IMG/VR virus record: IMGVR_UViG_3300027896_000022
Span: 17,954 to 81,953 of that record
Length of the DNA: 64,000 nucleotides
Direction: 5' to 3' (one strand)
Source: a virus
Lineage: Duplodnaviria; Heunggongvirae; Uroviricota; Caudoviricetes
Shown: one piece after another, positions 18,349-62,982 of the stretch
Layout of the letters: every line of letters begins with the position of its first letter
How positions within the stretch are numbered: position 1 is the stretch's first letter
Translations under genes and position numbers: made by a program
The notes under the pieces: model-generated
Databases searched by the model: none
Told to the model about the DNA's origin: nothing
Seen by the model: only the letters and a program-made list of their open reading frames with translations

Positions 18349-18567
18349 ATGAAACAACATACTTTAAAAGATCTGGAAAATGCCCCAGATACTTTAATAA
18401 AATTTTTTCTTTTACAGGGCAAAGCCGAACCATCGATGCTTGAAGATGCTCTTGAGTTTTATAAAACGGTTTCAGTCAGTGCCTGGAAATCTCAAAGAAA
18501 AAATAGAAAAAATTTTATCAAATATTTTCTTAGAACAATGAAATTTTTTAATTCTATAAAACGATGA
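18349..18567 (+). CDS. Small hypothetical protein
   Basis: 72-aa ORF. Confidence 0.4.
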   Translation: MKQHTLKDLENAPDTLIKFFLLQGKAEPSMLEDALEFYKTVSVSAWKSQRKNRKNFIKYFLRTMKFFNSIKR

Positions 18568-19415
18568 TTAAAAACCATGGCGCCTTTGTCGTCGCCAGAC
18601 AATTTTTTGAAAGTGAACTTTGGTTAATGAAGCCAGCAAGTTGGGGAAAGATATGGCTTTATATTTTTGGAAAAGTTCATCATGAGACAGATAAACACTT
18701 TGAAAGAGGCTCTGGATTCTTTAATTTTAGCCGAGAATTAAAACTTATTGGCCCTGATATTACCTATGATAATATTCGCCACGCATTGCATTTCTTCAAA
18801 ATGAGCACAATGATAAGCACAAAGAAAACCACAAGAGGAATTATTATAAAAGTGCTTAATTATAATAAGTTTCAAACACTTAGCAATTATAAAAGCACAA
18901 TAGAAAGCACAAGCTCAAGCACAAGAAAAGCACAACAGAAGCACAACAGAAGCACAACTATAGACAAGTATGGTAAGAATGATAAGAATGATAATAATAC
19001 CCCCCTACCCCCCAAGGGGGGTTCCGAATCGGAAGAGATTAATCTTAATGGTTCTAAAAATAATAAACTTAGGGGCGGAACACAAAATCTTGAAATTGTC
19101 AAGGGGGTAGAGGCGGAAGAGATCCAGGAAGTTTTGAATGTTTTTTACGAAGACGCAAAAGCAAACAATGTTGAGTTTAGGTTCGGCCACAGAGGATACC
19201 GGAAAGCGGTAGAGGAATTAATTCTTTCTCATGGCGTGGGGCAGGTGGTTGCCGTGGCCAAGATAGCAATCGGGCTTAGGGGGGTTGATCAATTTGCTCC
19301 AAGCATTACGAGCCCTTTTGATTTGAGAGATAAATGGATGAAGCTTGTGGCTTATGGCCAACGTCAAGCTATTGAACCTCCAAAGAAAATAGGATGGGTT
19401 ACATGCGAATATTGA
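18564..19415 (+). CDS. Hypothetical protein. From its position in the replication module it may be an initiator or loader.
   Basis: 283-aa ORF overlapping the upstream stop. It has a low-complexity Ser/Thr/Lys middle. Confidence 0.45.
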   Translation: MIKNHGAFVVARQFFESELWLMKPASWGKIWLYIFGKVHHETDKHFERGSGFFNFSRELKLIGPDITYDNIRHALHFFKMSTMISTKKTTRGIIIKVLNYNKFQTLSNYKSTIESTSSSTRKAQQKHNRSTTIDKYGKNDKNDNNTPLPPKGGSESEEINLNGSKNNKLRGGTQNLEIVKGVEAEEIQEVLNVFYEDAKANNVEFRFGHRGYRKAVEELILSHGVGQVVAVAKIAIGLRGVDQFAPSITSPFDLRDKWMKLVAYGQRQAIEPPKKIGWVTCEY

Positions 19416-23611: not shown

Positions 23612-23660
23612 CTCATCCCCGAATGGCTCAGGCAGGTTCGATTCCTGCCCGGGGATCAAA
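23612..23660 (+). other. tRNA-3'-half-like hairpin (T-arm-like ggcaggttcgattcctgcc flanked by tccccg and cgggga). It is not a complete tRNA.
   Basis: It has a GGTTCGATTCC T-loop consensus and nested stems. No D-arm or anticodon arm is found upstream. Confidence 0.3.
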
Positions 23661-23680
23661 TTAATTATTAATAAAAAAAT

Positions 23681-32870: not shown

Positions 32871-32967
32871 CAAAAAAATAAACTGGTGCCAGTTGTCAGG
32901 CGCGGGGATTCTTAGTCGCTTCTTCTGCGTTAAAGGATTGGGTAAATGGCCGTAGGACCAGCCGGTG

Positions 32968-33055
32968 GGGCAGATAGCCTCGTAGAGAGCGAGAGCAGAC
33001 TGTAAATCTGTCATCCATTAGGGTCTTGTTGGTGCGACTCCAGCTCTGCCCACCA
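32968..33055 (+). tRNA. Class-II (long variable arm) tRNA with encoded CCA and anticodon GTA (Tyr), folded by hand
   Basis: Acceptor gggcaga/tctgccc is 7 bp perfect, and ACCA is encoded. The anticodon arm is gcaga-ctGTAaa-tctgt with U33 and A37. The T-arm is gttgg-tgcgact-ccagc. The D-arm is irregular. Confidence 0.45.
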
Positions 33056-33541: not shown

Positions 33542-33568
33542 TAAATCTCTCTGTTTATATTTTTGTTT

Positions 33569-33580
33569 TTGTGCTATAAT
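33569..33580 (+). promoter_or_regulatory. Extended -10 promoter element TGcTATAAT
   Basis: The tttgtgctataat sequence is shared with 52569-52577. Confidence 0.4.
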
Positions 33581-34019
33581 TATGCACAGGCGATTTAAAT
33601 GGTATTTTCATCTCTAGCTTAGAAAGAGAAAGGCGGCAATATTTTAATTTGAAGGCTTTTTCTCTCTCGCCAGCATGAAAGGGGATAAAAATCTTATCTT
33701 GCCCAAAGTTGCCGGGAAAATTAAAGGGGATTAATGAAAGCCGCTTTTTCTGGATGCTCTCTGGAAAATAAAGCTGAAGTCTTCTTCAATCGGCAACAAC
33801 GAAAGAGCGAAGAACCCTGCAAGCCCCTGGATATATTTATCCAATTTGCCGGAGAACAAAGGCGTGTTTCTTCCCACCAAGCTTGGCAGCTCTTTAGCTC
33901 TTTTGTTTTCGCCCTATGACCGATTTTGAAATGAAATTTGTAATTATAGTGTTTCTCACCCCAGCCCTGCTGGCGGTATTTTTTTGTTTAAACAGCAATT
34001 ATCAATGGATAGGCGGATT

Positions 34020-34260
34020 AATGTAGTGTAGGTAGCGTAGGGAAAAAAATGTAAAAAGTCATAGGAAGGAACAGGAAAGGAATAGGAAAGGAATAGGGGA
34101 AATAAAGGATATAGAATAGGAATGGTTAATAGGGAATTATATTAAAGGGGAATCCCCGGGCGGAAGCCCGCCGCGCCGCAGCGCGGAATAGTTTTGGATA
34201 TATTGGATATAGGGATTTTTGGAATTTGGGATTTTAAGAATTTATAGTTTTTTTTATTTT
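34020..34260. repeat. Iteron-like purine-rich direct repeats with ~11-nt periodicity (aataggaaagg twice plus degenerate copies). They are followed by two adjacent GC-only hairpins and GGATAT/TTTGGAATTT direct repeats, making this a candidate origin or packaging region.
   Basis: 34060-34140 reads ggaaggaacaggaaaggaataggaaaggaatagggg. 34150-34185 has ggcgg-aagc-ccgcc and ccgcgc-cgca-gcgcgg. 34195-34250 has ggatatattggatatagg and tttggaatttgggatttt. Confidence 0.4.
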
Positions 34261-34452
34261 TTGGAAGAATTTTCGCCAAAAGTGTGAAAAATGGCGGTAA
34301 AAGTGAAAAGTTGCGGATAAATATGTAAATGTTACAGTACTTTTCTATAAAAAAAACCTTAATATAACCCAATAAATCATTGATTAAAATGCATATTTGA
34401 CAAAATTTTAAATTTGACAATTCAAAAACATTCGTGTTCTTATGTTGCTGTT

Positions 34453-34492
34453 AAAAAAAAGCATAGTAGTATTGCTACCACTATGCTTTTTC
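34453..34492. terminator. Bidirectional intrinsic terminator between convergent gene blocks
   Basis: The A8 run, then gcatagt...actatgc hairpin, then T-run gives a symmetric terminator usable on both strands. Confidence 0.55.
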
Positions 34493-34503
34493 TTTGCATA
34501 ATT

Positions 34504-34950
34504 CTATGCTTCAATTTCAGTGACCTTCTGGCTGTAATAGGATTCAAGCAGATCTTTTGCTTTGACATCCAAATTCTCGGCAGTAACCTTCAGTTCTCCT
34601 GATTCAATCTTGGTGATTGTGGCATTCTCTTCGGCTATTCTTTTCTCAATGCCTACAATAACTTCCTTCACATTCTTGATGGATTCATTGCAATAAGCGA
34701 TGCTTTCATTTTCATTCTTTAACAGATCTTCATAGCTGGGATTCTTTTTGTCCAGTATAGATATGTTATAATTAGCTTGAGCGATCCTCTTGTTAAAAGA
34801 TCCTAACAGACCGTTCTCTTCGGTGATTCTGCCGTTTAAATGCATTACCTCTTGCAGGATGTTGCTGATCCAGCGGGCTCTCAAGAGCTCTCTGGCTAAG
34901 TCCCTGATGGCCATTACCAAGGTGGAATTGGCTTTCATTGTTTCGTTCAT
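34504..34950 (-). CDS. Hypothetical coiled-coil protein
   Basis: 148-aa ORF. Confidence 0.45.
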   Translation of the reverse strand: MNETMKANSTLVMAIRDLARELLRARWISNILQEVMHLNGRITEENGLLGSFNKRIAQANYNISILDKKNPSYEDLLKNENESIAYCNESIKNVKEVIVGIEKRIAEENATITKIESGELKVTAENLDVKAKDLLESYYSQKVTEIEA

Positions 34951-41535: not shown

Positions 41536-44500
41536 ATGGCAACAGCAAAAATACCTTTGACTTTGGATCAAATGGAGCAGCAAAATGCAGATTTGGACAG
41601 GCAACAGGCAATTTTGGATGCAAAAGTACAAAATACAGGCAGTTTTTTCAGTGAAGCAACTCCAACTTCACCAGAATTGAATTTAGATATTCAGCAAAGG
41701 GCGTTAAATGCCAAACAAGACACGCTACAAAGCAATATATTAGCTAGAAAAGTATATGGCGACACTACTGCCATGGGGGAAGATACTGCCAGCAAGCAGG
41801 GATTGGTAGGAGGTATAGTAAATACGCTCAGTGCCCCATTATATGGCGTGGTTGGTGCGGCTAAATATGCCTTAGGCAAAAGCGACCAGCCGACATTTGG
41901 CGAGAGTGTGATGGAAAACGTTAAAAGCACCAAGGACACTTGGGGAAATTTATTGCGGCAGATGGGAACGGCACCCTTGATAGCGGCACCATTGGGATTT
42001 GGATTGGATGTGATTACCGATCCGGTGAATTTGGCGACAGGCGGATGGGCGGGGTTGGAAAGAACCGCCTTGGGAAAAATTGTCACTGGTGCGGCCAAGG
42101 CCGGAAAAGAAGGCTTGGTAGCCGGGGCCAAAACGGCAACTTTGGATTTGGCTTCCCGGATAGCCAGTGTGGTTCCAGGAATGAATGTAGATACGATTGC
42201 CAGGGATGCGGCAGAAAAGTTGGCTAAAGAAGGGGTTGCCGCCAATACTCCGGAATATATAGAGGCGGTAAAGAAGGCTTTCATTCCCGCGGACAAAGGG
42301 GTGGGAAATATTATCGGCAATATTCGCTATGGCATAAAGAATCTTTATGAAAAAACATTGACTGCCAAAAATAATTATGACGATGTGATTGGTTTTGATA
42401 TGGGCAAGATGCTGGATGCGCGGGCGGAAAGAGAAAGCATTGCTGATAAGACTAGTGCTTTGATTTCTTCAATTCCTAAGATTGGGCCCCTGCCTTCTGG
42501 GGTGGAAATGGCTGATTTCTTTTCTTACAATTCAAACAAATGGACGCAGAATGCAATCTTAATGAATAAGCTTGATGAAGCAATGGCTAAGGCGGGAAGG
42601 GTTGCGGTGGCGACGATTGATCCGCAAACTGGAGAGAAAATTTATCCGGGTGTGGAAGAATTGATGAGAGTGGTCAAAAATGTTCAAGGATTGGATCCTA
42701 ATCCGATAGCCATAAATAATGATATAAAGTTTAAAGATTTGAGCAAGATGATTGAAGACTGGGGCAATGGTTTGAAAAATGGCGCGGATGTCATGCATAT
42801 TCCTGGCGAGGATATTCGGGTAGCGTCGACGCCGGCAATGAACGATGCTTTTACGACCGAACTTAGAAACACTAATGTTTATAATGATCTTAATAACGCT
42901 CTTCGTGACATGATGGGGAAAGCCGACTTGAGTGCTGTGGATAAGTTTAGGAATTGGGTTAGCAAAGGGGTTTGGGGGAAGAATAGCGCCAAGAAAGTAG
43001 AATATGGCAAAAAGCTATTGAATTCTTATGATTTTTTGATGGGGTGGTTTAAGAACATGAAGATTTCTTCTTTGAGCCCTTCTTCCTTGGTTTATGCCAT
43101 TTTGGGTAATGGCACCATGCAGCATATGGCGGGAGTGAATATGCTTCGTCCGGAAGTATTTAATCGGATGAAAGATGCGGCAGTTCTGATGTCGGGCGGC
43201 AAGATTCCTGGGCTGGGAGGGATAAAAGAATTTGACCGCTTGGTTAATGAATTGATTGTTCATCCGAAAGATCGTTATTTAAGTGATTTTTTTACGCAAC
43301 ATAGTGATTTGGCAAGGCAAAATTTTGCTTTAAGCGGCAGGACTTTTGGTGTTCATAGTTTGGCAGATGATATTATTAATTCAACGATAGAGCAAGAGAG
43401 AAAGGTTTTGGGCAGAGATCTGACAACAATGGAGCGAAATGATATTTATAATGAGATCTACGCTAATAGAAGCAAGGAGGTTGATGCTCTTTTAAAAAGT
43501 GATACCGGGTTAGCAAGATTGAGCATGATGAATGGCACAATGCCTGCCGGGAAAGAATCAACTGGAATATTGGCTAATGAACTGGCTCCGCATAAAGCAT
43601 TTTTAAATTGGAAGAATAGTATTGCGGAAAAAGCGGCAGCACCGGGAGCGAGCAATGGCGTTAAATTTTTAAATTGGACTTTGAATAGAAGCAATGATTT
43701 TCAAATGACAGATCAGATTTGGAAATTGCAGAATTTTCTATTGCTGACTCAGGATGGCGTGACTGAAAGAGAATTGATGAAGTTGACTAATAATTTTATG
43801 TCGACAACCGCCCGGATTAATTCTTCTGATATTATTGGAACGGTTACTAAAGGAGGTCAAAAATATTATCGGATAGCTCCGGAGAAGGCGATGGAAATAG
43901 CCAATGAAACTTTCATGAACTATGCGGCCATGCCGGGATTTGTTAAAATGGTAAGAAGCATGCCGATTCTTGGTTCTCCCTTTTTCTCTTTTACTTATGC
44001 GATGCTCCAAAAGACAGCAAAGACTATGGTAAATAATCCGGCTGCTTTAAATCAGATTAATTTTTTACTGCAAGAAATGCAGCCGCCGCAAACGCCGCTG
44101 GAAAGAGAAGCGTTAAAAACTAAAGCTTATAGTTATTTAAGCCAGCCCGGAATGGTTAACTTGGGAGAAAATTTTCCGTTTTTTACTGGTAATCCTCTAT
44201 ATTTGAATTTGGCTCAAATGGTTCCTTATTATAGTTTGAATATTCTTAACCAGTCGACTAGAAATTTTAACGATACGGCCAGGGGAAAAGTAGCAACTGT
44301 CTTGGATAAATCTCCTTTAATGAAAGATCCAGTTGGTCAGTTATTGATGGATTATGTAGTGCTTCCTTCTTTAATGTATGACGAAACTCCGACTAATATG
44401 TTTGGCGGACAGTTGTATCCGACAGGCACTAGTGCTTCAGGAAAGCTTGGATATGCAACAAGATCTTTGGCTGAAGCCTTAACTCCTTCGACGGTTGCGC

Positions 44501-44724
44501 CAGTGGGGCTTGTTACTCCTGATTATTTAAAGAATTTATTGCCGAGTTATCCGGCAAGAAAATTAGGATATGCGGCTGAAGGAAAGACAGCGGTTGGAGT
44601 TCAGACAAAAGAGCCTCCGGCTCAGAAAGGATTAAGAGCATTATTAAGTACAATGGGAGTTAATCTTTATCCGGTGAATTTGACGATGGTTGCCACTGAA
44701 GTTAAAAATAAACAATTGCCGTAG
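41536..44724 (+). CDS. Large hypothetical protein of 1062 aa. It is a possible virion or ejected protein.
   Basis: Long ORF leading the late or structural block. It has an N-terminal coiled coil and no motif I can name. Confidence 0.6.
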   Translation: MATAKIPLTLDQMEQQNADLDRQQAILDAKVQNTGSFFSEATPTSPELNLDIQQRALNAKQDTLQSNILARKVYGDTTAMGEDTASKQGLVGGIVNTLSAPLYGVVGAAKYALGKSDQPTFGESVMENVKSTKDTWGNLLRQMGTAPLIAAPLGFGLDVITDPVNLATGGWAGLERTALGKIVTGAAKAGKEGLVAGAKTATLDLASRIASVVPGMNVDTIARDAAEKLAKEGVAANTPEYIEAVKKAFIPADKGVGNIIGNIRYGIKNLYEKTLTAKNNYDDVIGFDMGKMLDARAERESIADKTSALISSIPKIGPLPSGVEMADFFSYNSNKWTQNAILMNKLDEAMAKAGRVAVATIDPQTGEKIYPGVEELMRVVKNVQGLDPNPIAINNDIKFKDLSKMIEDWGNGLKNGADVMHIPGEDIRVASTPAMNDAFTTELRNTNVYNDLNNALRDMMGKADLSAVDKFRNWVSKGVWGKNSAKKVEYGKKLLNSYDFLMGWFKNMKISSLSPSSLVYAILGNGTMQHMAGVNMLRPEVFNRMKDAAVLMSGGKIPGLGGIKEFDRLVNELIVHPKDRYLSDFFTQHSDLARQNFALSGRTFGVHSLADDIINSTIEQERKVLGRDLTTMERNDIYNEIYANRSKEVDALLKSDTGLARLSMMNGTMPAGKESTGILANELAPHKAFLNWKNSIAEKAAAPGASNGVKFLNWTLNRSNDFQMTDQIWKLQNFLLLTQDGVTERELMKLTNNFMSTTARINSSDIIGTVTKGGQKYYRIAPEKAMEIANETFMNYAAMPGFVKMVRSMPILGSPFFSFTYAMLQKTAKTMVNNPAALNQINFLLQEMQPPQTPLEREALKTKAYSYLSQPGMVNLGENFPFFTGNPLYLNLAQMVPYYSLNILNQSTRNFNDTARGKVATVLDKSPLMKDPVGQLLMDYVVLPSLMYDETPTNMFGGQLYPTGTSASGKLGYATRSLAEALTPSTVAPVGLVTPDYLKNLLPSYPARKLGYAAEGKTAVGVQTKEPPAQKGLRALLSTMGVNLYPVNLTMVATEVKNKQLP

Positions 44725-46186: not shown

Positions 46187-47614
46187 ATGAATGAAAAATT
46201 ATTAGAAAAATTGAAAGATCCAAAATTCTTTTTGGAAAATTTAGTTAAAATAAAAGGTAAAACGCCAGGGTTAATTCCGTTTATTCTAAATGAAGCCCAG
46301 AAAGATCTTTTTAATACATTAAGGAAACATAATCGCGTGATTATCTGCAAAGCCCGGCAGATTGGATTTAGCACAGCCGTTGTTGGTTATCTTTATTGGA
46401 AGACTCTTATGACTCCGGGAACAAATACTGCAATTATTGGTTATAATGCTCCATTGACGGCTGAACTTTTGGATAAAGTTAAGACTTTTTATAGAAGTAC
46501 TCCAGCAGATCTTCGTCCGGCCATCCATTATAATTCTAAAAGTGAAATTTCTTTTCCAAATATTGACAGTAAGATAATCGTTTTGCCATCTACTGAGAAT
46601 GTGGGCAGAGGATATACTCTTCATAACGTTTTGGCCACTGAATTATCAGCCTGGGAAAAAGCGGAAGATAAAATGATGTCTCTTGAAGCTTCTGTTCCGT
46701 TAGATGGGTTGATTGTGGTGGAAAGCACTCCTCGCGGGCAAGGAAATCTTTATCATAAGATGTTTATTGAAGAAAATGGTTATGCCAAGAAGGAATACGG
46801 TTGGTGGTGGGGATATACAGAGGAAGAGATTGAGACGATTAAAAAAAGAATGAACAATCCGATGCGTTTTGCTCAAGAATACGGATTGGAATTTCTTGCT
46901 TCTGGCAGATCTGTCTTTGATCAGAATGTTATCAGAAAACAAAGGAAGAATATTCTTAAGGTTGGTGACAAACATGGTGATTGGACGGTTATAGAAGAAA
47001 GAGGTTTGAGAATTTATTCTAACGTTGATCCTTCGGCTATGTATATTTTTGGGGTAGATACTTCAGAGGGCGTGGATGGAGGAGATTATTCTACTGCTAC
47101 TGTTTTCAACAGAACAAGCGGCGAAGAAGCGGCTTTTTATAAAGGATTGATTGAACCGGATAAGTTGGCGAAACTTTTGAATGAATGGGGGAGAAAATTT
47201 AATAATGCTTTAATGGTAGTTGAGGTTAACAATCATGGATTGACGACGTTAACCGTATTGAAACAATTGATGTATCCAACGCTTTATTTCAGGCAATCTC
47301 AATATGAGACGATTGGAGCTAAATATTCTGATAGATTGGGTTGGAAGACGACAAAGTTGACCAGACCTTTATTAATTGATGATTTATCCCAGGCGGTTAG
47401 AGAAGGTGTTCTGACTATTCATAGTAAGGAAACGTTGGATGAGATGTCGACTTTTATATATGACAAAAATAATAACATGGTTGCTTCTGGGACAACTCAT
47501 GATGACTGTATTTTTTCAGCAGCAATTTCTTTTCAGGGGTTTAAAGTTATGTGGGATAAGCCGTTAGATCAAATAAATTATGCAAATCATCTTCCGATGA
47601 GTACTAATTATTAA
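46187..47614 (+). CDS. Terminase large subunit
   Basis: Walker A-like KARQIGFSTAV, plus a C-terminal nuclease-like region with conserved acidic residues (DTSEG, HDDCIFS). Confidence 0.7.
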   Translation: MNEKLLEKLKDPKFFLENLVKIKGKTPGLIPFILNEAQKDLFNTLRKHNRVIICKARQIGFSTAVVGYLYWKTLMTPGTNTAIIGYNAPLTAELLDKVKTFYRSTPADLRPAIHYNSKSEISFPNIDSKIIVLPSTENVGRGYTLHNVLATELSAWEKAEDKMMSLEASVPLDGLIVVESTPRGQGNLYHKMFIEENGYAKKEYGWWWGYTEEEIETIKKRMNNPMRFAQEYGLEFLASGRSVFDQNVIRKQRKNILKVGDKHGDWTVIEERGLRIYSNVDPSAMYIFGVDTSEGVDGGDYSTATVFNRTSGEEAAFYKGLIEPDKLAKLLNEWGRKFNNALMVVEVNNHGLTTLTVLKQLMYPTLYFRQSQYETIGAKYSDRLGWKTTKLTRPLLIDDLSQAVREGVLTIHSKETLDEMSTFIYDKNNNMVASGTTHDDCIFSAAISFQGFKVMWDKPLDQINYANHLPMSTNY

Positions 47615-53304: not shown

Positions 53305-54084
53305 ATGAATTTTATGAATCCAAACAATCCAAACTCGTCCGCCCCTGATCAGGCGGGTAGCGGGAAGGGTCCTGCAGGTAACGGTGCAGGGCAGCCTGGA
53401 AACGTTAACTATGAAGCATTATACAATGAGCTTGAACAAAAGCTCGGATCCCAAGGAAAAGAGTTAGGTGAATATCGAACTTTTTTTGAAGGGATAGCGC
53501 CAATTTTGGATGTCTTAGACAAGAGTCCTGAAATGGTGCAAGCCATTACTGACGGAAAACTGGATAATTCTTTAGCCAAAGCGGCTTTAGAAGGAAAGTT
53601 GACTGTTAGTGATGTTAAAACAGTCGAGAAAGCCTATGCTGAAGTCCAAAAAGATTTGGGCAAGAAAGGCTACGAAAAAGCCACTGCGGAGGATATTACG
53701 AAACTCGTTGAGGAAAGAGTTGGTGAAGTTAAGAAAGAAATGGATAATTCTTTGCGTGAAAGTGAAGAATTACGAGCGTTTGAAGGCAAGGTCAATGATT
53801 TTGTCGAAAGAACGCCTGATTTCGCCAATTATGCTCGAGACATCGAAGGATGGCTTGACGATCATGAGGATATAACTGATATTGAAGTTGCTTACTATGC
53901 CGTCAAAGGACAGCTTTCTGGAAATGAAGCGTCTCAAAAGGCGGAAGAAGAAAAGGCTGAATACGCCAAAAACATGGCTTTAAATGCCGGTGGAGGCGGA
54001 TATAAGTCTAATTTCATAGATGCTTCTGAAGGGGATGTTATTGATTCCCTTATTGCTCCAAAGTCAAACCCGAATGCTTTTTAG
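53305..54084 (+). CDS. Putative scaffolding protein
   Basis: Acidic coiled-coil protein immediately upstream of the capsid gene. Confidence 0.4.
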   Translation: MNFMNPNNPNSSAPDQAGSGKGPAGNGAGQPGNVNYEALYNELEQKLGSQGKELGEYRTFFEGIAPILDVLDKSPEMVQAITDGKLDNSLAKAALEGKLTVSDVKTVEKAYAEVQKDLGKKGYEKATAEDITKLVEERVGEVKKEMDNSLRESEELRAFEGKVNDFVERTPDFANYARDIEGWLDDHEDITDIEVAYYAVKGQLSGNEASQKAEEEKAEYAKNMALNAGGGGYKSNFIDASEGDVIDSLIAPKSNPNAF

Positions 54085-54124: not shown

Positions 54125-54352
54125 ATGCCTAATATTTATCCGTATTATAATGAGCCAACCCACGACCAGGGTAATGCCATTACATTAACGGCTCCAAATG
54201 CTGGGCGTACTTCCAAGACTGCGTCTGATGAGCAAAGGCTTATCGTCGATGCGGTTGACAAAATATTCTTACTCGAACCGAACAAGCATCCATTAGTTAC
54301 TCTTTTGACAAATGTCGGAAAAGTATACGATAAACAATTACTGTCGTATTAA
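54125..54352 (+). CDS. Major capsid protein exon 1. The ORF as called runs a few codons into the intron.
   Basis: It is followed by a group I intron. The capsid-like exon 2 continues at ~55380. Confidence 0.45.
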   Translation: MPNIYPYYNEPTHDQGNAITLTAPNAGRTSKTASDEQRLIVDAVDKIFLLEPNKHPLVTLLTNVGKVYDKQLLSY

Positions 54353-55385
54353 AATCGGGTTAATTCGGGGAAACTCTTTAGTAGACAATCCCGACCCAAG
54401 ATATTCAGGAATGAATATAAGGGCTAACGACTAATAGCATACCGCCAGAACGGCGATGAAGCTAACAAGAAATCCCGAAGCCAGAGATGGCTAAGATATA
54501 GTCTGAACATCATAGTGATATGATGAAACATAGGATAAAGAGCCTATGGTGATAACATTATAGGGTAAAGCTTGGAAAGGATCTTCCATGTTGAAAGCTT
54601 CAACTGGAAATCCGGAGTTTAAGTGGTTTTTTAGGCTTATATTAGCCGAGAATAAGTAATTCTTTGGACCACTATAAAATTAGCTATTTGCTGGAACACC
54701 CTAAAGGCTTGCGTACCATAGAAGAACATGATACAATGTAATCTATGGTAAAAATCTCAAGCATACAAAAAGTGGGCAATCAGCAGGTAACATCTACAAC
54801 TCTCGCATGGCTTGCGGGAATTTGGGATGGTGAAGGTACTTTTGGTATTTACGGATATCCTAATGGAAAAAAAAGAAGGATGTATTATTGTGGAAGAATG
54901 ACATTATCTAATACTTCTCCTTTAATGATTGATGAAATAATTAGGATTATGGAGTTGTTGGGAGTAAAAGTTGATGTTTGGAAAGAAAAAAAATCACGTA
55001 AAGAGAATCATAAAAAGGCCGTTCATCTTACATTAAATCGAATTGATTCAGTTAAAATGGTATGTGAATTATTAATTCCATACTTAGTTGCAAAAAAAGA
55101 TAGGGCAGAATTATTGTTAAAATTTCTTAATTCTCGTTTAACTTATAAAAGAAAAGTAAAACGAGATCCTGCCACAGGTCATATTCTTGGGGTTATTGAA
55201 CAAGGATATCCTAAAATAGATATTGCAATGTGGAAAAAAATGAGAGACTTGAATCAAGTAGGTATTGTTGTAGATGGTTCCTCAGAGACTACACGCTAAT
55301 CCTCTGGTAACAGAGTGATGATATAGTCCGAACTCACGCGAAATCGTGAGAGTTGTACAGAAATGATACAACCTCTTAATTGAGT
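54340..55385 (+). mobile_element. Group I self-splicing intron carrying a LAGLIDADG homing endonuclease ORF. The boundaries are approximate.
   Basis: Group I core elements are present: an R-like gggctaacgactaatagca at ~54420 and an S-like gatgatatagtccgaac at ~55318. The ~400-nt 5' part is structured and non-coding. It interrupts a capsid-like reading frame. Confidence 0.6.
54745..55299 (+). CDS. LAGLIDADG homing endonuclease, encoded within the intron
   Basis: Contains LAWLAGIWDGEGTFGIY, a single LAGLIDADG motif, and is a 184-aa basic protein. Confidence 0.7.
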   Translation: MVKISSIQKVGNQQVTSTTLAWLAGIWDGEGTFGIYGYPNGKKRRMYYCGRMTLSNTSPLMIDEIIRIMELLGVKVDVWKEKKSRKENHKKAVHLTLNRIDSVKMVCELLIPYLVAKKDRAELLLKFLNSRLTYKRKVKRDPATGHILGVIEQGYPKIDIAMWKKMRDLNQVGIVVDGSSETTR

Positions 55386-56390: not shown

Positions 56391-56545
56391 AGTAATTTAG
56401 TTTCTTAATTTTCATCGAGTTAAGATATTCACTACCCGGCGGCCTGAAGAAAAATGGCTGCCGGGTAGGGGCCTGAGTCCCCTACCCCGACATGGCTACG
56501 GGTCATTAGCCGGTTTAATAAATCGATGTTTAATCAAATAAGAAT

Positions 56546-57280
56546 ATGCCAAGTTTAGAACAAATACGCACTCGCAAATATTTGACTAGAGGTGTTGTTG
56601 GCCAGGTATGCGCTGACAATTCTGTGATATTTACGATGCGTTATATTGGCGGTGGTACGGTTACTTCGGTAATTACAACTGCTGCTACTGACATAACAAT
56701 GGTAACGGTTGTTGGCACTACCACTTATACAGATGCTTATACTTGGGCTGCTTATAATACCGTTGAGAAATTAGTGGCTGCAATTAATGCTGATGGCAGA
56801 TTTGAAGCCAAAGTTATGGATTGTTTGTCCACGACAGCTACGGCTGCAAACTTTGTTATCGGTGCAACTTTAGCAGTAGATGCTAACGGTAATTATGATA
56901 TTTTGGGTGATACTAGCAATATTCTCTTTATGGCCTATCGTCTGACCTATGATCGGACTTTTAATACAAATGCAAAAGTTCGAGGAAGCCATAGAGTTGC
57001 CATTCAGGAAATAGTCACTACGTTGACTCTAGGTGGAGCTCATGTGAACACATTCAAGATTTATGAATGTACTCCTGGCGGTAATTCTGAGTCTTATCCT
57101 TCATCTGAAACTTTGATTTATCAAAAGTCTCCGGTGACTGGTACGACTTCAACTTTGAATTGGGCTAGCGGAAATAGTGAGATTACCAGCAATGAAGGCA
57201 ATGATTTATTGTTAGTCATTTCTGATAGCGTATCTTTTGGAGCTTCTGATGTTGTTACGGTTACTGGTAAAGCAGAATAG
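56546..57280 (+). CDS. Structural protein, paralog A
   Basis: It starts MPSLEQIRTRKYLTRGVVGQV and contains IGGGTVTSVITTAATDIT. Confidence 0.5.
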   Translation: MPSLEQIRTRKYLTRGVVGQVCADNSVIFTMRYIGGGTVTSVITTAATDITMVTVVGTTTYTDAYTWAAYNTVEKLVAAINADGRFEAKVMDCLSTTATAANFVIGATLAVDANGNYDILGDTSNILFMAYRLTYDRTFNTNAKVRGSHRVAIQEIVTTLTLGGAHVNTFKIYECTPGGNSESYPSSETLIYQKSPVTGTTSTLNWASGNSEITSNEGNDLLLVISDSVSFGASDVVTVTGKAE

Positions 57281-57429
57281 TTATAAATTCCTAATTTTCA
57301 TTGAGTTAGGATATTCGTACGGAGCGGTCCGAAGAAATAATGATCGCTTTATAGAAACAAGATTTCTATCCCGACATGGCCACGGGTTATTGGCCGGTCT
57401 AATTAATCAATGTTTAATAAAATAAGAAT

Positions 57430-58170
57430 ATGCCAAGTTTAAACGAATCATACATCAGACATGAATTGACCAGAGGTGTTATTGGTCAAGTGCTTGATGA
57501 TGCGCCTGTATTATTTAAATTAAAGTATATTGGTGGTGGCACAGTTACTTCGGTAATTGTAACTGCTGCTACTGATATTACGTTAGTTTCATCCTATGCT
57601 GGCACTACCAGCACTGATGCTTTTCATTGGGCGGCTCCAGCAACTTATACTACCGTTCGTCTGATGGTTGATGCTATTAATAATACGGGAAGATGGGAAG
57701 CTAAAATCATGGATGCCTTATCTACTACTACTTTAGGTGCTAACTTAATGATAGGCGGGACCTTAGTAGTAAATGCTGATGGAGAATATGAAGTAGTGTC
57801 TGATACTAGTAATGCCAAATTTATGGCTTACAGATTGTCTTATGACAGAACTTTCAAGAATACCAGATCGTTAAGAAATGGTCATAGAGTAAGCATTAAA
57901 GAAATCGTCACTAATCTTACTTTGGGTGGTGGCGCTGACACAAATTCATTTAAGATTTATGAGTGTACTCCAGGTGGCAATACTGCACCTTATGGTGGAG
58001 CTGAAATTTTAGTTCTGCAAAGAACGCCGACCACTGGTAGTGCTGAAACTGTTACTTGGGCTTCGGGCAAAGGTAAAATTACTGCCGAAGAAGGTAATGA
58101 TTTATTAACTATCATTACTGATTCCGGTAGTATTACCGGCTCTATAACAGTTAATGGTGAATTAGAATAG
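57430..58170 (+). CDS. Structural protein, paralog B
   Basis: It starts MPSLNESYIRHELTRGVIGQV and is colinear with 56546-57280. Confidence 0.5.
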   Translation: MPSLNESYIRHELTRGVIGQVLDDAPVLFKLKYIGGGTVTSVIVTAATDITLVSSYAGTTSTDAFHWAAPATYTTVRLMVDAINNTGRWEAKIMDALSTTTLGANLMIGGTLVVNADGEYEVVSDTSNAKFMAYRLSYDRTFKNTRSLRNGHRVSIKEIVTNLTLGGGADTNSFKIYECTPGGNTAPYGGAEILVLQRTPTTGSAETVTWASGKGKITAEEGNDLLTIITDSGSITGSITVNGELE

Positions 58171-59472: not shown

Positions 59473-62400
59473 ATGTCTTTACCTATTTATGTTCCGATAG
59501 CAGCCCCGGGAGGTGTAGGTGGTTCTACTGGTTATACAGGTTACACTGGTTACACTGGTGATGCCGGATCAGCAACTGATACTGGTGCTACCGGTTACAC
59601 TGGTTATACTGGTTACACTGGTTACACTGGTGATCCAGGAGCGGCAACTAATACCGGTGCCACTGGCTACACTGGTTATATTGGTGATACTGGTTACACT
59701 GGTTATACTGGTGCTGGTGCTTTTACGGGCGCTACTGGTTACACTGGCTACACTGGTAGAACAGGTTATACGGGTTATACAGGTTATACAGGTGATGCTG
59801 GTAATATAGGTCACACTGGTTACACTGGCCCTACTGGTTACACTGGCTATACTGGAGAAGGAGCTTTCACTGGTTATACTGGCTACACGAGTTATACTGG
59901 TTATACCGGTTATACTGGTGATGCTGGATCGGCGACTGATACAGGTGCTACCGGCTACACTGGTGCTACTGGTTACACTGGTTACACTGGTGCTGGTGGT
60001 TTTACTGGTTATACTGGTTACACAGGTGCTGGTGCTTTTACTGGTTATACAGGTTACACTGGTCCTCTTGGTGCTACTGGTGATACGGGCAATAAAGGAA
60101 ATCAAGGTCCTACTGGTTTTACTGGTTTTACTGGTTACACTGGTTATACTGGAGTAGGTGCTTTTACTGGTTATACTGGTTATACTGGATATACTGGTTA
60201 CACAGGAGATACTGGTTATACAGGTTATACTGGTTATACTGGTGCTGGTGCTTTTACTGGTTATACTGGCTACACCGGTGAAACAGGTTATACTGGCTAC
60301 ACTGGCTATACTGGTGATACAGGTGCTGGTGCTTTTACAGGATATACTGGATATACTGGTGAAACAGGTTATACTGGCTACACTGGTTATACTGGTGATA
60401 CAGGTGCTGGTGCTTTCACGGGATATACGGGATATACTGGTGACACTGGTGATATCGGAGATCAAGGTGACACTGGTTACACTGGTTATACAGGTTACAT
60501 TGGTTACACTGGCTACACTGGTGACACTGGAGATCAAGGTGATACAGGCTACACTGGTGACACTGGAGATATTGGCTATACTGGCTACACTGGTGACACT
60601 GGAGATCAAGGTGATACAGGCTACACTGGTGACACTGGAGATATTGGCTATACTGGCTATACTGGAGACACTGGAGATAAAGGTGATACAGGCTACACTG
60701 GTGACACAGGTGACATAGGTTATACTGGTTACACTGGTTATACTGGATATGGTGACACTGGATATACAGGTGATACAGGTGATACAGGAAATCAAGGTGA
60801 TACTGGTTACACTGGTTATACTGGATATACAGGTGATACAGGTGATACAGGAAATCAAGGTGATACTGGTTACACTGGTTATACTGGATATACAGGTGAT
60901 ACAGGTGATACAGGAAATCAAGGTGATACTGGTTACACTGGTTACACTGGTTATACAGGTGACACTGGTGATACGGGAAATCAAGGTGATACTGGTTACA
61001 CTGGTTATACTGGATATACAGGTGATACAGGTGATACAGGAAATCAAGGTGATACTGGTTACACCGGTTACACTGGTTATACAGGTGACACTGGTGATAC
61101 GGGAAATCAAGGTGATACTGGTGACACCGGAGACCAAGGTGACACAGGCTATACTGGCTACACTGGCTATACTGGATATGGCGACACTGGCTATACTGGT
61201 GACACTGGAGATCAAGGTTCTACTGGTTATACTGGCTACACTGGATATGGCGACACTGGCTATACTGGTTACACTGGTTATACTGGTGATAAAGGAGATG
61301 CAGCACTTACTGGTGCCACTGGTTACACTGGCTATGTTGGTTATACTGGTGATACTGGAGATCCAGGATCAGCAACTGATACTGGTGCCACAGGCTATAC
61401 TGGTTATACTGGTGATACTGGTTACACTGGCTATATAGGTTATACAGGCTTTACGGGTTATACTGGTTATACAGGTGATACCGGTGCTGGTGCTTTTACG
61501 GGTTATACAGGTTATACAGGTCGTACAGGATATACTGGCTATACTGGTTATACAGGTGCTGGTGCTTTTACTGGTTACACAGGTTATACAGGTGATACAG
61601 GTTATACTGGTTACACTGGTCGCACTGGCTATACGGGTTATACTGGTTATACTGGTACTACGGGATATACTGGTAGAACTGGTTATACAGGTTACACGGG
61701 TTATACTGGCTATACAGGTTATACCGGTGCTGGTGCTTTTACAGGCTATACTGGTTATACTGGTACTACAGGATATACTGGATATAGTGGTTATACTGGT
61801 ACTACCGGATATACTGGTTATACTGGTCCTGGTGCTTACACTGGCTACACTGGATACACTGGATATACTGGTTATACTGGTCCTGGTGCTTATACTGGCT
61901 ATACTGGATACACTGGATATACTGGTTATACTGGTGCTGGTGCTTATACTGGTTATACTGGATATAGTGGTTACACTGGTACTACAGGATATACGGGATA
62001 TACTGGTTATACTGGTGCAGGAGCTTTTACTGGCTACACTGGTTATAGTGGTTACACTGGTCCCACAGGTTACACTGGCTACACTGGTCGCACTGGCTAC
62101 ACTGGTACTACTGGTTATACTGGTTATACAGGTACTGGTGCTTTTACTGGATATACTGGATATACTGGTGGAACAGGTTATACTGGTTATACTGGACCAG
62201 GTGCTTACACAGGTTACACGGGTTATACTGGCTATACAGGTTATACTGGAGGAACTGGTGCTGGTGCCTTTACGGGTTATACTGGTTATACTGGCTACAC
62301 TGGTTACACTGGCTATACGGGTGCTGGTGCTTACACTGGCTACACTGGTTACACGGGTTATACGGGCCGCACAGGTTATACTGGTTACACGGGTTATACA

Positions 62401-62982
62401 GGTGATGCTGGTAACGTAGGCCATACGGGTTATACAGGTTATACAGGTACTACAGGTTATACAGGCTACACTGGTATTGGAGTTACTGGCTACACTGGTT
62501 ATACTGGACCTCAAATATTAACTACTTCAACAACGACGAACTTAACTGGTTTCATAAAAGGAAACGGGTCTGTTCTTAGTGCTGATAATACAACTTATGC
62601 ACCATTAGCTTCTCCTGTTTTTACCGGGAAAGCGACTATGAGTGGGAGTGATACAATTGGTAATATTTATAATCCTGATACTGGAGCTAAAAATGTTACG
62701 ATAGATTGTTCTACCCATAATATGCATATTGTTAATGGCCATACGGATGGAACGGCTATCACCTTCTTAGTGTCTAATGCCACTAATAATCAAGTATTCA
62801 TTGTTTCTGTTCTTCAAGGATCTGGAACAGTTTCAACGATTTCAGGATGGTTTGCTACAGTTAGATGGGTAGGAGGAACTACTCCAACTCTTACGGCAAC
62901 TCTTAATAAAAGAGATACTTTTGGATTTATTAGAACAGGTACAAATACTTATGATGGGTTTATAATCGGGCAAAATTGTTAA
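59473..62982 (+). CDS. Collagen-like Gly-X-Y repeat fiber protein of 1169 aa, with a C-terminal ~155-aa non-repetitive beta-rich domain. It is a candidate tail fiber or receptor-binding protein.
   Basis: About 1000 residues are uninterrupted G-X-Y triplets, mostly G-Y-T, with G-D-T, G-A-G and G-N-Q also present. The non-collagen C-terminus begins [21 protein letters not shown]. Confidence 0.7.
60760..61140 (+). repeat. Six near-identical tandem 63-nt repeats inside the collagen-like gene, each encoding [21 protein letters not shown]
   Basis: Direct reading shows ggttacactggttatactggatatacaggtgatacaggtgatacaggaaatcaaggtgatact repeated with 0-3 substitutions. Confidence 0.8.

What the first reader, a model, noticed from the sequence alone, without database searches (positions are those of the whole stretch)
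33920..34500. About 580-bp non-coding region with 11-nt-periodic purine iterons, twin GC hairpins and AT-rich direct repeats: candidate replication origin or packaging site
aataggaaagg-type repeats recur at roughly helical periodicity (34060-34140). Two back-to-back GC-only hairpins (34150-34185) stand out in a ~33% GC genome. Downstream come GGATAT and TTTGGAATTT direct repeats and a duplicated TTTGACAA (34400-34430). The region sits at a convergent strand switch ending in a bidirectional terminator. The 34142-34420 minus ORF here is low-complexity and probably not real.
Basis: seen in the sequence. Interest (0 to 1): 0.55.

Follow-up and report, generated by a model that had tools for sequence, protein, structure and literature searches.

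The report
Repeat-and-hairpin spacer beside a phage RNA gene
The described repeats and twin GC hairpins are real and partly conserved in related uncultured phages, but they look like an optional DNA-level accessory site next to a newly noticed structured RNA gene, while the phage's main replication origin probably lies 15 kb away.

Summary
Window 33986-34452 is non-coding. It has the highest GGA density in the 64 kb, TAGGRA repeats at about 11 nt, and two abutting GC-only hairpins found nowhere else in the window. It also has phased T-tracts, 19-nt GCGG repeats, a duplicated ATTTGACAA and a bidirectional terminator.

The same order of parts recurs in three relatives whose neighbouring proteins are 49-72% identical to the window's. 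There the first hairpin's stem covaries, and the loops (GGAA, GAA) fit DNA mini-hairpin motifs on the + strand only. The module is missing in four other close relatives and in one distant relative.

A more canonical origin candidate lies at 18.8-19.0 kb. It is an array of 8-9 AGCACAA repeats, an AT-rich stretch and a GC hairpin inside a DnaD-like gene, beside the Prim-Pol/helicase gene and at the GC-skew minimum. The terminase genes are 11 kb away, so a packaging site is unlikely.

My best reading, at low confidence (0.3), is an auxiliary replication or priming site. An RNA role or a regulatory binding array remain live rivals.

The finding's left edge is the terminator of a separate element I call RNA A (33586-33915, + strand). 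It is a roughly 330-nt structured RNA with its own promoter and strong covariation support, and it has no Rfam match.

The parts
33572..33580 (+). Extended -10 promoter TGCTATAAT of RNA A
   Evidence: Conserved in L004, L011 and L012, and as TGCTATTAT in L013. The same motif lies upstream of the first genes of other + strand blocks: 17779 before 17826, and TGnTATAAT at 41482 before 41536.
33586..33915 (+). RNA A, a conserved structured non-coding RNA. It lies outside most of the finding but sets its left boundary.
   Evidence: RNAalifold predicts 54 pairs. 88.8% of cells are paired against 43-55% when partners are slid; 23 pairs have compensatory changes against 5-11 slid; 0 of 500 shuffles reach the observed score. 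Indels are not multiples of 3 and ORFs are not conserved. No Rfam match.
33957..33985 (+). Intrinsic terminator of RNA A (CCAGC-CCT-GCTGG core, then T7)
   Evidence: Found by the terminator scan. Hairpin-plus-T-run equivalents, judged by eye, sit at the same place in L004, L012, L013 and L096.
34018..34041 (+). TAG-rich lead-in (GTAGCGTAG, 2.1 copies)
   Evidence: Tandem Repeats Finder. TAGCGTAG also occurs in L011 just before its second purine block.
34061..34135 (+). Purine-rich TAGGRA repeats at about 11-nt spacing (ATAGGAAAGGA, 3.5 copies, plus dispersed copies)
   Evidence: L004 (AGGGA), L011 (ATAGGAAA) and L013 (AGGGAATAAC) each carry their own version of the repeat.
34120..34128 (+). 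Conserved GAATGGTTA motif that closes the purine block
   Evidence: GAATGGT lies 25-44 nt upstream of the hairpin(s) in the window, L004 and L011, and upstream of the single hairpin in L013.
34147..34186 (+). Three abutting GC hairpins: GGGG-AAT-CCCC, CGGGC-GGAA-GCCCG and CCGCGC-CGCA-GCGCGG
   Evidence: Single copy in the window. The stem of hairpin 1 covaries (CGGGC/GCCCG; TCGCC/GGCGA in L011; GCC/GGC in L004). Hairpin 2 is identical in L011 and is CCGCGC-GAA-GCGCGG in L004. GCGGAAGC, CCGAAGG and GCGAAGC fit the DNA mini-hairpin classes described in PMC13037366. The first small hairpin is not conserved.
34187..34262 (+). T/G-rich tract with TTTGG and GGATAT repeats and phased T-tracts
   Evidence: AA/TT phasing at 10.25 bp. 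GGAATAG(T)...TTTTGG follows the hairpin in L013 as well, which then has a long TGGTTTT-rich tract.
34270..34321 (+). GAAAA-N-GCGG repeats: two 19-nt direct copies plus one inverted partial copy (TTTTCGCCAAAAG)
   Evidence: Equivalents in relatives: GGAAAACACCGCGGGGATTATTGG four times or more in L010, where the contig ends inside the array; TTCGGAAAAATCCGAA in L013; ACGGAAAAATCCGT in L095; GCAAAAATGCGGAAATG in L011.
34335..34356 (+). Conserved ACAGTACTTTTCTATAAAAAAA element (AGTACTTTT...TAAAA)
   Evidence: Seen by eye at the same relative position in L011, L014 and L095, and weaker in L013 and L004. Unique in the window.
34396..34421 (+). Pair of short direct repeats, ATTTGACAA twice, 17 nt apart
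   Evidence: Most relatives examined carry a pair of short direct repeats here, but with different sequences: AACTCAAAAA-type in L004 and L013, CAGACCGCAT in L014 and L095, TGACAA in L012.
34453..34494 (.). Bidirectional intrinsic terminator (A8, long hairpin, T-rich run) ending the 148-aa gene at 34504-34950 (-)
   Evidence: Inverted repeat I1. The outer stem covaries and the core GTAGTATTGCTAC is kept in all close relatives; even L097 keeps GTATTTCTAC.

Best explanation
Window 33986-34452 is a lineage-variable, non-coding, DNA-level cis-acting module. It sits between the terminator of a conserved structured RNA gene (RNA A) and the bidirectional terminator of the convergent operon.

Its parts, in order, are:
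- an array of TAGGRA sites on one face of the helix (spacing about 11 bp);
- two or three abutting GC hairpins whose loops, on the + strand only, fit the unusually stable DNA mini-hairpin motifs (GCGNNAGC, GCGNAGC, CCGAAGG);
- a T-tract-phased, easily melted stretch;
- a second set of repeats (GAAAA-N-GCGG, palindromic in relatives).

I think it most likely works as an auxiliary replication-initiation or priming site. In this model proteins bind the phased repeats and bend the DNA, and the AT-rich stretch opens. The + strand hairpins then extrude and stay free of single-strand-binding protein. That would mark a start point for the phage's Prim-Pol/DnaB-type primase-helicase, as the ssiA hairpin does for the RepB' primase in the RSF1010 origin.

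It is probably not the primary origin, which is better placed at 18.8-19.0 kb, and not a packaging site.

**Shown:** the anatomy, its uniqueness in the window, and partial conservation with hairpin covariation.
**Inferred:** the DNA-level reading, and every mechanistic step.
For: - **Real and unique.** The repeats and hairpins are statistically exceptional and single-copy.
- **Conserved order.** The sequence purine repeats, GAATGGT, hairpin(s), GGAAYAG, T-rich tract, GAAAA-N-(G)CGG repeats, AGTACTTTT..TAAAA, repeat pair, terminator recurs in L004, L011 and L013. Their neighbouring ligase is 72%, 49% and 51% identical to the window's.
- **Hairpin covariation.** The stem of hairpin 1 covaries, and the loops switch between GGAA and GAA. 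DNA mini-hairpins tolerate that switch. CCGAAGG is the very motif in RSF1010 ssiA, GCGAAAGC is in the phage G4 origin, and GAA/GGA loops occur in N4 hairpin promoters (PMC13037366).
- **One strand only.** These loop motifs exist only on the + strand.
- **Signs of protein-binding sites.** Each genome has its own repeat variant and copy number. The repeat cores in relatives are palindromes that cannot form hairpins (CCGCGG, GGATTAATCC).
- **Weak RNA signal.** RNA folding of the + strand is not better than shuffled sequence (z = -1.2 in the window, +1.2 in L013). No conserved sigma-70 promoter precedes the purine block (and inspection).
- **A plausible partner enzyme.** The phage encodes a Prim-Pol (AEP-type) primase fused to a DnaB-like helicase. 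By my recollection RepB' is AEP-like; this was not checked here.
Against: - The purine/hairpin/T-rich part is absent in L012, L096, L014 and L095 (ligase 52-60% identical). In L014 and L095 an unrelated 177-179-aa gene sits at that place. The whole unit is absent in L097. It is therefore dispensable.
- A canonical origin candidate exists elsewhere and does not share the repeat motif.
- GC skew shows no inflection at 34 kb.
- The region is 13 kb from the replication genes.
- No binding protein has been identified.
- The hairpins would also form in RNA, and one loop (GGAA) is a GNRA tetraloop.
- The loop of hairpin 2 in the window and L011 (CGCA) fits no mini-hairpin class.
- Only four genomes carry the module, so the covariation evidence is thin.
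Confidence: 0.3

Rival explanations
1. The region is RNA. It would be transcribed on the + strand, by read-through of the RNA A terminator or as part of a cluster of RNA genes. The unstructured GGA/AGGA repeats would act as a sponge for an RNA-binding protein, as CsrB/RsmZ do for CsrA. The GC hairpins would protect or define the 3' end.
For: - GGA density is the highest in the window, and GGA is the common core of the repeat variants in all four genomes.
- The region lies in a run of + strand RNA features: a tRNA-like element at 32966-33053, then RNA A.
- The downstream terminator has a T-rich run on the + strand as well.
- One hairpin loop presents GGA (GGAA).
- An accessory anti-host RNA would explain the patchy distribution.
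Against: - No Csr/Rsm or any other Rfam family scores, even at E <= 10.
- No conserved promoter precedes the repeats, and the RNA A terminator looks strong (8-bp stem plus T7).
- Folding energy is not significant.
- GGA is not presented in loops in L004 or L011, whose loops are GAA.
- No CsrA-like or other RNA-binding protein was found among the window's ORFs.
- An 11-nt period, phased T-tracts and loop-less palindromes are DNA properties.
Confidence: 0.2
2. The region is a transcription-regulatory or architectural DNA array. Operator-like repeats would control small promoters (for example one using AGTACTTTT..TAAAAT and ending at the bidirectional terminator). Phased sites would bind a phage nucleoid-type protein such as the HU-like protein. 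Together they would insulate the two convergent transcription units.
For: - Palindromic cores lie 12-16 nt from a conserved AGTACTTTT..TAAAAT element: TTCGGAAAAATCCGAA in L013, ACGGAAAAATCCGT in L095.
- TTGACA-type hexamers sit near the terminator in the window, L012 and L013.
- This 3' part is the most widely kept piece, present even in the relatives that lack the hairpins.
- The phage encodes an HU-like protein and a MerR-type regulator.
Against: - No promoter here reaches a good consensus on either strand. The scan finds no more promoter-like sites than shuffled sequence does.
- No gene lies downstream in either direction.
- This reading does not explain the GC mini-hairpins or the purine strand bias.
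Confidence: 0.2
3. The region has no specific function beyond termination. Fast-evolving low-complexity tandem repeats would have accumulated in a tolerated gap between convergent terminators.
For: Distribution is patchy, repeat sequences turn over quickly, copy number varies, and the module is replaced by a gene in L014 and L095. Global alignment identity of the gap is only about 32%.
Against: - Module order, GAATGGT, the hairpin 2 sequence and GGAAYAG are kept between genomes whose proteins are only about 50% identical.
- The stem of hairpin 1 covaries rather than decaying.
- This is the longest gene-free gap in a tightly packed genome.
Confidence: 0.15
4. The region is a packaging signal or a physical genome end (pac, cos or a terminal-repeat boundary).
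For: Several relatives' contigs end inside the equivalent region: L005, L006-L009 and L010. Phased repeats and bent DNA are typical of sites bound by the small terminase subunit.
Against: - Those contig ends coincide with a tandem repeat array, a common cause of assembly breaks.
- Contigs of the window phage itself run straight through.
- The terminase genes are 11 kb away, and the large terminase is most similar, among others, to T4-like gp17 of cyanophages at 27-30% identity.
- The module is missing in close relatives.
Confidence: 0.05
5. The hairpins are N4-type DNA hairpin promoters for a phage single-subunit RNA polymerase.
For: The hairpins have 5-6-bp GC stems and GAA or GGAA loops, like N4 vRNAP promoters (PMC13037366).
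Against: - No RNA polymerase was found. The two large unassigned proteins have no family or PDB sequence match. The 1062-aa protein also gave only a low-confidence, mostly helical model (pLDDT 58) with no structural match.
- The hairpins are single-copy and abut each other.
- No gene lies downstream in either direction.
Confidence: 0.03

Closest known systems
RSF1010 (IncQ) oriV: iterons, a GC-rich stretch, an AT-rich stretch, and the ssiA/ssiB hairpins used by the RepB' primase
   Same: Direct repeats, a GC-only segment, an AT-rich segment, and a hairpin carrying the CCGAAGG mini-hairpin motif (exact in L004 and L011). The element also encodes a primase that could use such a signal.
   Different: The repeats here are about 11 nt, not 20 bp. 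The hairpins are adjacent and on one strand, not on opposite strands. No RepC-like iteron-binding protein was found. The module is dispensable among close relatives, and a second origin-like array exists elsewhere.
Complementary-strand origins of phages G4, St-1 and alpha3 (primase-recognised hairpins with GCGNNAGC)
   Same: A cluster of adjacent GC hairpins with the GCGNNAGC motif (GCGGAAGC in the window) on one strand.
   Different: Those are single-stranded DNA phages in which the strand is naturally exposed. This is a double-stranded phage of at least 87 kb, so exposure would need unwinding, an R-loop or cruciform extrusion.
Lambda-type origins (iterons plus an AT-rich stretch inside the initiator gene)
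   Same: Phased direct repeats next to AT-rich DNA.
   Different: That architecture fits the array at 18.8-19.0 kb inside the DnaD-like gene far better than it fits the finding.
CsrB/RsmY/RsmZ-type sponge RNAs
   Same: A very high density of (A)GGA motifs in a non-coding stretch.
   Different: No Rfam match, no promoter, motifs not presented in hairpin loops, and no evidence of transcription.
Plasmid R1 parC and other centromere arrays of 11-bp repeats
   Same: Direct repeats of about 11 bp, on one face of the helix.
   Different: No ParM/ParR, ParA/ParB or TubZ/TubR genes were found in the window.
ColE1 origin (structured RNA II, then RNA-DNA hybrid, then a primosome assembly hairpin on the displaced strand)
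   Same: The order matches: promoter, structured RNA, purine-rich stretch, then hairpins on the strand that + sense synthesis would displace.
   Different: A strong terminator separates RNA A from the purine stretch. There is no sequence similarity and no evidence of hybrid formation.

Membership tests
Iteron-type replication origin (theta or lambda-like) | Several direct repeats of one motif next to an AT-rich stretch that can unwind | tested here: met
   TAGGRA repeats at 34061-34135, GCGG repeats at 34284-34321, and an AT/T-rich stretch at 34187-34262 and 34340-34450.
Iteron-type replication origin (theta or lambda-like) | Located in or next to the initiator or replication genes, or sharing iterons with such a site | tested here: not met
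   The replication genes are at 12-23 kb. The repeat motifs of the region do not recur there. A separate AGCACAA array sits inside the DnaD-like gene.
Iteron-type replication origin (theta or lambda-like) | Strand-composition switch (GC-skew extremum) at the site | tested here: not met
   The cumulative skew minimum is at 17-19 kb, and the curve rises monotonically or plateaus through 34 kb. Skew in this phage largely follows transcription direction, so this test is weak.
Iteron-type replication origin (theta or lambda-like) | Conserved in relatives that share the replication machinery | tested here: inconclusive
   Present in 3 of the 7 close relatives whose contigs span the junction, and absent in a distant one.
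Iteron-type replication origin (theta or lambda-like) | Initiation of DNA synthesis at the site | not testable with these tools
   Needs marker-frequency analysis, 2D gels or in vitro replication.
Single-strand initiation (ssi) signal or DNA mini-hairpin | GC-stem hairpin with a GNA or GNNA loop closed by C-G (GCGNAGC, GCGNNAGC or CCGAAGG) | tested here: met
   GCGGAAGC (window hairpin 1), CCGAAGG (L004 and L011 hairpin 1) and GCGAAGC (L004 hairpin 2); motif definitions from PMC13037366. Hairpin 2 of the window and L011 (loop CGCA) does not fit.
Single-strand initiation (ssi) signal or DNA mini-hairpin | Recognition by a primase and priming nearby | not testable with these tools
Packaging site (pac or cos) | Position in or beside the terminase genes, or at mapped genome ends | tested here: not met
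   The large terminase is at 46187-47614. Contigs of this phage cross the region. Termini could not be mapped.
CsrA/RsmA-sequestering sRNA | Match to a Csr/Rsm covariance model | tested here: not met
   No such match at E <= 10.
CsrA/RsmA-sequestering sRNA | Several GGA motifs presented in hairpin loops, with its own promoter and terminator | tested here: not met
   GGA motifs are many, but only one lies in a loop and that is not conserved. There is no convincing promoter.
N4-type hairpin promoter | Cognate single-subunit virion RNA polymerase encoded by the phage | tested here: inconclusive
   None was recognised in the window. About 24 kb of the genome lies outside the window.
Intrinsic terminator (for the twin hairpins) | A U-run directly after the stem, conserved in relatives | tested here: not met
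   The window has AATAGTTTTG after hairpin 2 and is flagged by the scan. L011 (AACAGTATAAGG) and L004 (AACTTAAATG) have no U-run.

The most novel reading that the evidence does not exclude
RNA A and the repeat/hairpin module could form one transcription-primed origin, on the ColE1 RNA II or T4 oriF principle. In this reading, transcripts that escape the RNA A terminator run into the polypurine GGA repeats and form an unusually stable RNA-DNA hybrid. The displaced + strand, which is G-tract-rich and carries the mini-hairpins, stays open. The phage Prim-Pol/helicase then loads at the hairpins. This would be a new origin type for a large double-stranded DNA phage, and it would give a function to a new structured RNA family.
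Probability: 0.08. Interest if true: 0.75.

Novelty: new variant of a known kind. Interest (0 to 1): 0.42.

Why it matters
**If the module is an auxiliary priming or initiation site.** It would extend mini-hairpin ssi signals to a large double-stranded phage. So far these are known from single-stranded phages and from IncQ plasmids. It would also link them to a Prim-Pol/DnaB fusion enzyme.

**The adjacent RNA A.** This may be the more durable result. It is a roughly 330-nt RNA with its own promoter and terminator. It has clear covariation in five genomes and no Rfam family. It belongs to an uncultured phage lineage that has no relatives in GenBank phages or IMG/VR.

**For annotation.** The practical message is that this gap should not be labelled as the origin or as pac. 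The array inside the DnaD-like gene at 18.8-19.0 kb is the better origin call.

Tried and rejected
- **Similarity to GenBank phages:** none for the region at DNA level, and none for the neighbouring 552-aa ligase. The large terminase is at most 30% identical to any GenBank phage.
- **IMG/VR and JGI metagenome scans:** scans with the neighbouring 148-aa protein, with an alignment of its homologues, and with three DNA patterns found no true relatives. The hits were chance matches or an unrelated gut element.
- **Identical contigs:** three contigs from other samples are identical across the gap, so they carry no information.
- **Rfam:** nothing at the gathering or permissive thresholds.
- **Global alignment of the gap across relatives:** poor, about 32% identity, so the parts were compared by motif and by eye.
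- **RNA folding of the repeat/hairpin stretch:** not significant on the + strand.
- **Decayed copy of the L014/L095 177-aa gene:** rejected, no tblastn match.
- **phiEco32-type promoters:** TAATGTA occurs 8 times in the window, in line with my estimate of the chance rate, and mostly not upstream of gene starts. The 7-11-type bipartite motif does not fit.
- **The 1062-aa protein next to the HU-like gene as a hidden polymerase:** the model has pLDDT 58 and there are no fold matches.
- **Partition or CsrA-like genes:** none found in a family scan of 63 window ORFs not individually scanned before.
- **Covariance model of RNA A:** not built, because a model of this length would exceed the calibration limit.
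Full report
**Context**

The window comes from an uncultured tailed phage whose contig is at least 87 kb. Genes recognised in it include:
- an SU10-type major capsid protein, a portal and a large terminase only distantly similar to known ones;
- RecA, an SNF2 helicase, SbcC and a RuvC-like resolvase;
- a DnaD-like protein, and a Prim-Pol primase fused to a DnaB-like helicase;
- many methyltransferases and glycosyltransferases, and a phiEco32-type COOH-NH2 ligase with a glutamine amidotransferase-like protein.

The phage has no close relatives in GenBank phages or IMG/VR.

The finding lies in the longest gene-free gap of the window, 33542-34503 (962 bp). The gap separates a + strand block (17.8-33.5 kb) from a - strand block (34.5-40.3 kb).

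- *Purine repeats.* Tandem Repeats Finder reports ATAGGAAAGGA, period 11, 3.5 copies, at 34061-34097, with further TAGGRA copies up to 34135.
- *Statistics.* TAGG periodicity of about 11.25 nt and GGA density (19 per 200 nt against 3.3 ± 2.2) are both the window maxima.
- *Hairpins.* CGGGC-GGAA-GCCCG (34157-34170) and CCGCGC-CGCA-GCGCGG (34171-34186) abut each other. They are preceded by GGGG-AAT-CCCC. They have no second copy in the 64 kb. Folded as DNA the stretch gives -16.8 kcal/mol, z = -2.7.
- *Downstream features.* GGATAT twice; a 16-nt unit twice; T-tracts phased at 10.25 bp, just below the window's 99.9th percentile; two 19-nt GAAAA-N-GCGG repeats (34284-34321); ATTTGACAA twice; and a bidirectional terminator at 34453-34494.
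- *Minus-strand ORF.* The ORF at 34142-34420 was not called on any of the three identical contigs. No gene is called at the equivalent place in the relatives that keep the module.

**What the left edge really is**

The stretch 33920-33985 is not part of the repeat region. It is the 3' end and terminator of a separate element that I call RNA A.

- An extended -10 promoter, TGCTATAAT (33572-33580), is conserved in relatives. The same motif lies upstream of the first genes of other + strand blocks.
- About 330 nt follow that are conserved at the nucleotide level in L004, L011, L012 and L013, and recognisably in L014, L095 and L096. The flanking proteins of these genomes are only 50-72% identical to the window's.
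- Indels are not multiples of three, and no ORF is conserved.
- RNAalifold predicts 54 pairs in eight helices.
- On that alignment 88.8% of cells pair, against 43-55% when partners are slid. 23 pairs show compensatory changes, against 5-11 slid. 0 of 500 shuffles reach the observed score. The structure was predicted on the same alignment of only five sequences, which flatters it somewhat.
- Many G-U pairs place the RNA on the + strand.
- A hairpin-plus-T7 terminator follows at about 33957-33985, with equivalents in the relatives.
- Rfam has no match.

**Comparative anatomy of the repeat region**

Homologues of the adjacent 148-aa protein and of the ligase led to eight informative relatives. 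Two further lineages, represented by L005-L010, have contigs that stop inside the region and so show only its right-hand end.

*Relatives that keep the module.* L004, L011 and L013 keep the same order of parts as the window:
1. purine repeats, in each genome's own version (AGGGA, ATAGGAAA, AGGGAATAAC);
2. GAATGGT;
3. hairpin(s);
4. GGAAYAG;
5. a T/G-rich tract;
6. GAAAA-N-(G)CGG repeats;
7. AGTACTTTT..TAAAA;
8. a pair of short direct repeats;
9. the terminator.

*Hairpins in those relatives.*
- Hairpin 2 is identical in L011. In L004 it is CCGCGC-GAA-GCGCGG.
- The stem of hairpin 1 covaries: CGGGC/GCCCG in the window, TCGCC/GGCGA in L011, GCC/GGC in L004. Its loop is GGAA or GAA.
- L013 has a single, longer, mixed-sequence hairpin.

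*Relatives that lack it.*
- L012 and L096 lack the purine/hairpin/T-rich part.
- In L014 and L095 an unrelated 177-179-aa zinc-ribbon gene sits there instead.
- The distant relative L097 has only a 136-bp junction with the terminator.

*Assembly breaks.* In another lineage the GAAAA-N-GCGG equivalent is an array of at least four GGAAAACACCGCGGGGATTATTGG units. Contigs from five samples stop at or inside this array.

*What is shared by the eight close relatives.* All carry RNA A (divergent in L014 and L095) and the bidirectional terminator with the core GTAGTATTGCTAC. Most also keep the palindrome or iteron, the AGTACTTTT element and an AT-rich stretch with a repeat pair, although these are weak or unclear in L012, L004 and L096.

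**DNA or RNA?**

Several features point to DNA:
- The repeats have a helical period, and the T-tracts are phased.
- The repeat cores in relatives are palindromes with no possible loop (CCGCGG, GGATTAATCC).
- Folding of the + strand as RNA is no better than shuffled sequence (z = -1.2 in the window, +1.2 in L013).
- No conserved promoter precedes the purine block.
- The hairpin loops alternate between GGAA and GAA, closed by C-G. GCGGAAGC, CCGAAGG and GCGAAGC are the GCGNNAGC/GCGNAGC-type DNA mini-hairpins.
- A 2026 review (PMC13037366) lists these motifs at the primase site of the phage G4 origin, in ssiA of the RSF1010 oriV (CCGAAGG exactly), and in N4 virion-RNA-polymerase promoters. The motifs exist only on the + strand here.

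This is an argument from resemblance, not a test. One loop (CGCA) fits no class, and GGAA is also a GNRA tetraloop in RNA.

**Why it is probably not the primary origin or pac**

- Cumulative GC skew has its minimum at 17-19 kb and no inflection at 34 kb. Skew here largely follows gene orientation, so this is weak evidence.
- The DnaD-like gene (18564-19415) carries, in its low-complexity linker, 8-9 AGCACAA repeats at about 11-nt spacing (18804-18958; TRF period 11, 6 copies).
- These are followed by AAGAATGAT (3.7 copies) and the GC hairpin CCCCC-CAAG-GGGGG (19008-19021).
- That array is one small ORF away from the Prim-Pol/DnaB gene. By my knowledge of lambda O and SPP1 gene 38, this is the classical origin-inside-the-initiator-gene layout.
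- Its repeat motif is not shared with the finding.
- The terminase genes are at 45-47.6 kb, and nothing ties the region to packaging.
- The module is dispensable among close relatives.

**Best explanation and rivals**

I commit, at 0.3, to an auxiliary replication or priming site. In this model phased binding sites and bent, meltable DNA expose the + strand, and its mini-hairpins mark a start point for the Prim-Pol/helicase. The closest analogue is RSF1010 oriV.

| Rival | Confidence |
|---|---|
| + strand RNA with GGA-sponge character | 0.2 |
| Regulatory or architectural binding array with small promoters | 0.2 |
| Repeat expansion with no specific function | 0.15 |
| Packaging signal or genome end | 0.05 |
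| N4-type hairpin promoters | 0.03 |

The most novel reading not excluded is that RNA A, the polypurine tract and the hairpins form one transcription-primed origin, on the ColE1 or T4 oriF principle. I put that at about 0.08.

**Limits**

- Only four genomes carry the module, so hairpin covariation rests on three or four sequences.
- Neither transcription data nor read data could be examined.
- About 24 kb of the genome lies outside the window.

Noticed in passing
window 33572-33985 (+): RNA A is a conserved structured non-coding RNA of about 330 nt. It has its own TGCTATAAT promoter and an intrinsic terminator. 54 pairs are predicted and 23 have compensatory changes, well above the slid and shuffled controls. 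It has no Rfam match. It is present in all eight close relatives examined and absent in the distant relative L097.
   Followed up: partly
window 33896-33910 (+): The most conserved piece of RNA A, AGCUCUUUUGUUUUC (CGCUCUUUUG in L096), contains the GCUCUUU core that I recall from boxA antitermination elements. However, it is predicted to pair with ACGAAAGAGC at 33797-33806.
   Followed up: no
window 18804-19021 (+), inside the DnaD-like gene 18564-19415: An array of 8-9 AGCACAA repeats at about 11-nt spacing is followed by AAGAATGAT (3.7 copies) and the GC hairpin CCCCC-CAAG-GGGGG. It lies in the low-complexity linker of the DnaD-like protein, beside the Prim-Pol/DnaB gene and at the GC-skew minimum of the window. 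It is a better primary-origin candidate than the finding.
   Followed up: partly
window 32966-33053 (+): A tRNA-like element with a long variable arm and the anticodon-loop sequence CUGUAAA. It scores below threshold (23.5 bits on the tRNA-Sec model, E = 0.014) and ARAGORN does not call it. It lies between an HNH endonuclease gene and small ORFs.
   Followed up: partly
window 23625-23672 (+): The sequence ...GGTTCGATTCCTGCCCGGGGATCA, just upstream of the gene at 23681, looks like the T-arm and acceptor 3' half of a tRNA. Neither Rfam nor ARAGORN calls it.
   Followed up: partly
window 54297-54525 (+): A group I intron (Rfam RF00028, 61.6 bits) lies in the 660-bp gap between ORFs 53305-54084 and 54745-55299. 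These two ORFs may be exons of one gene. LAGLIDADG and HNH homing-endonuclease domains are also present in the window.
   Followed up: no
L006-L010, last 170-290 nt of each contig (window-equivalent about 34220-34330): Contigs of one relative lineage, from five different samples, all stop at or inside a tandem array of GGAAAACACCGCGGGGATTATTGG units. This is either an assembly break at repeats or a real hot spot of variation.
   Followed up: partly
L014 8252-8785 (-) and L095 10843-11382 (-): In two relatives a 177-179-aa protein with a CxCG...CxxC zinc-ribbon motif and no family match sits directly after RNA A, at the place where the window has the purine/hairpin module.
   Followed up: partly
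window 41536-44724 (+) and 13-4110 (+): Two large conserved proteins (1062 and 1365 aa) have no Pfam, PHROG or PDB sequence match. The 1062-aa protein always follows an HU-like gene in relatives. Its structure model is mostly helical, low confidence (pLDDT 58) and has no fold match.
   Followed up: partly
window 56430-56545 and 57315-57429 (+): Near-identical upstream sequences (...CCCGACATGGCYACGGGTYATTRGCCGGTYTAAT...AATAAGAATATGCCA) precede two adjacent genes of similar length (56546-57280 and 57430-58170). The leader or regulatory element seems to have been duplicated, perhaps together with the gene; I did not compare the two proteins.
   Followed up: no
window 59520-62507 (+): A collagen-like tail-fibre gene carries about 333 copies of a 9-nt unit (a Gly-X-Y repeat).
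   Followed up: no
L090 (IMGVR_UViG_2773857810_000001), positions about 1000-1160: An unrelated 2.1-kb viral contig ends in a series of GC hairpins with GAA or GCA loops (CCGCGC-GAA-GCGCGG, GGCCGGC-GCA-GCCGGCC, GCGCGC-GCA-GCGCGC twice). They are separated by TTTTGTTGC and followed by poly-T. These are the same mini-hairpin type and may mark a telomere-like or single-stranded-origin end.
   Followed up: no
L072-L088 (human-gut metagenome contigs): An identical element of about 190 nt, containing the hairpin AGAAAGAAAAAGGCGG...TTTTTCTCTC, immediately precedes homologous but divergent coding sequences on many contigs. It may be mobile or a conserved leader, and is unrelated to this phage.
   Followed up: no
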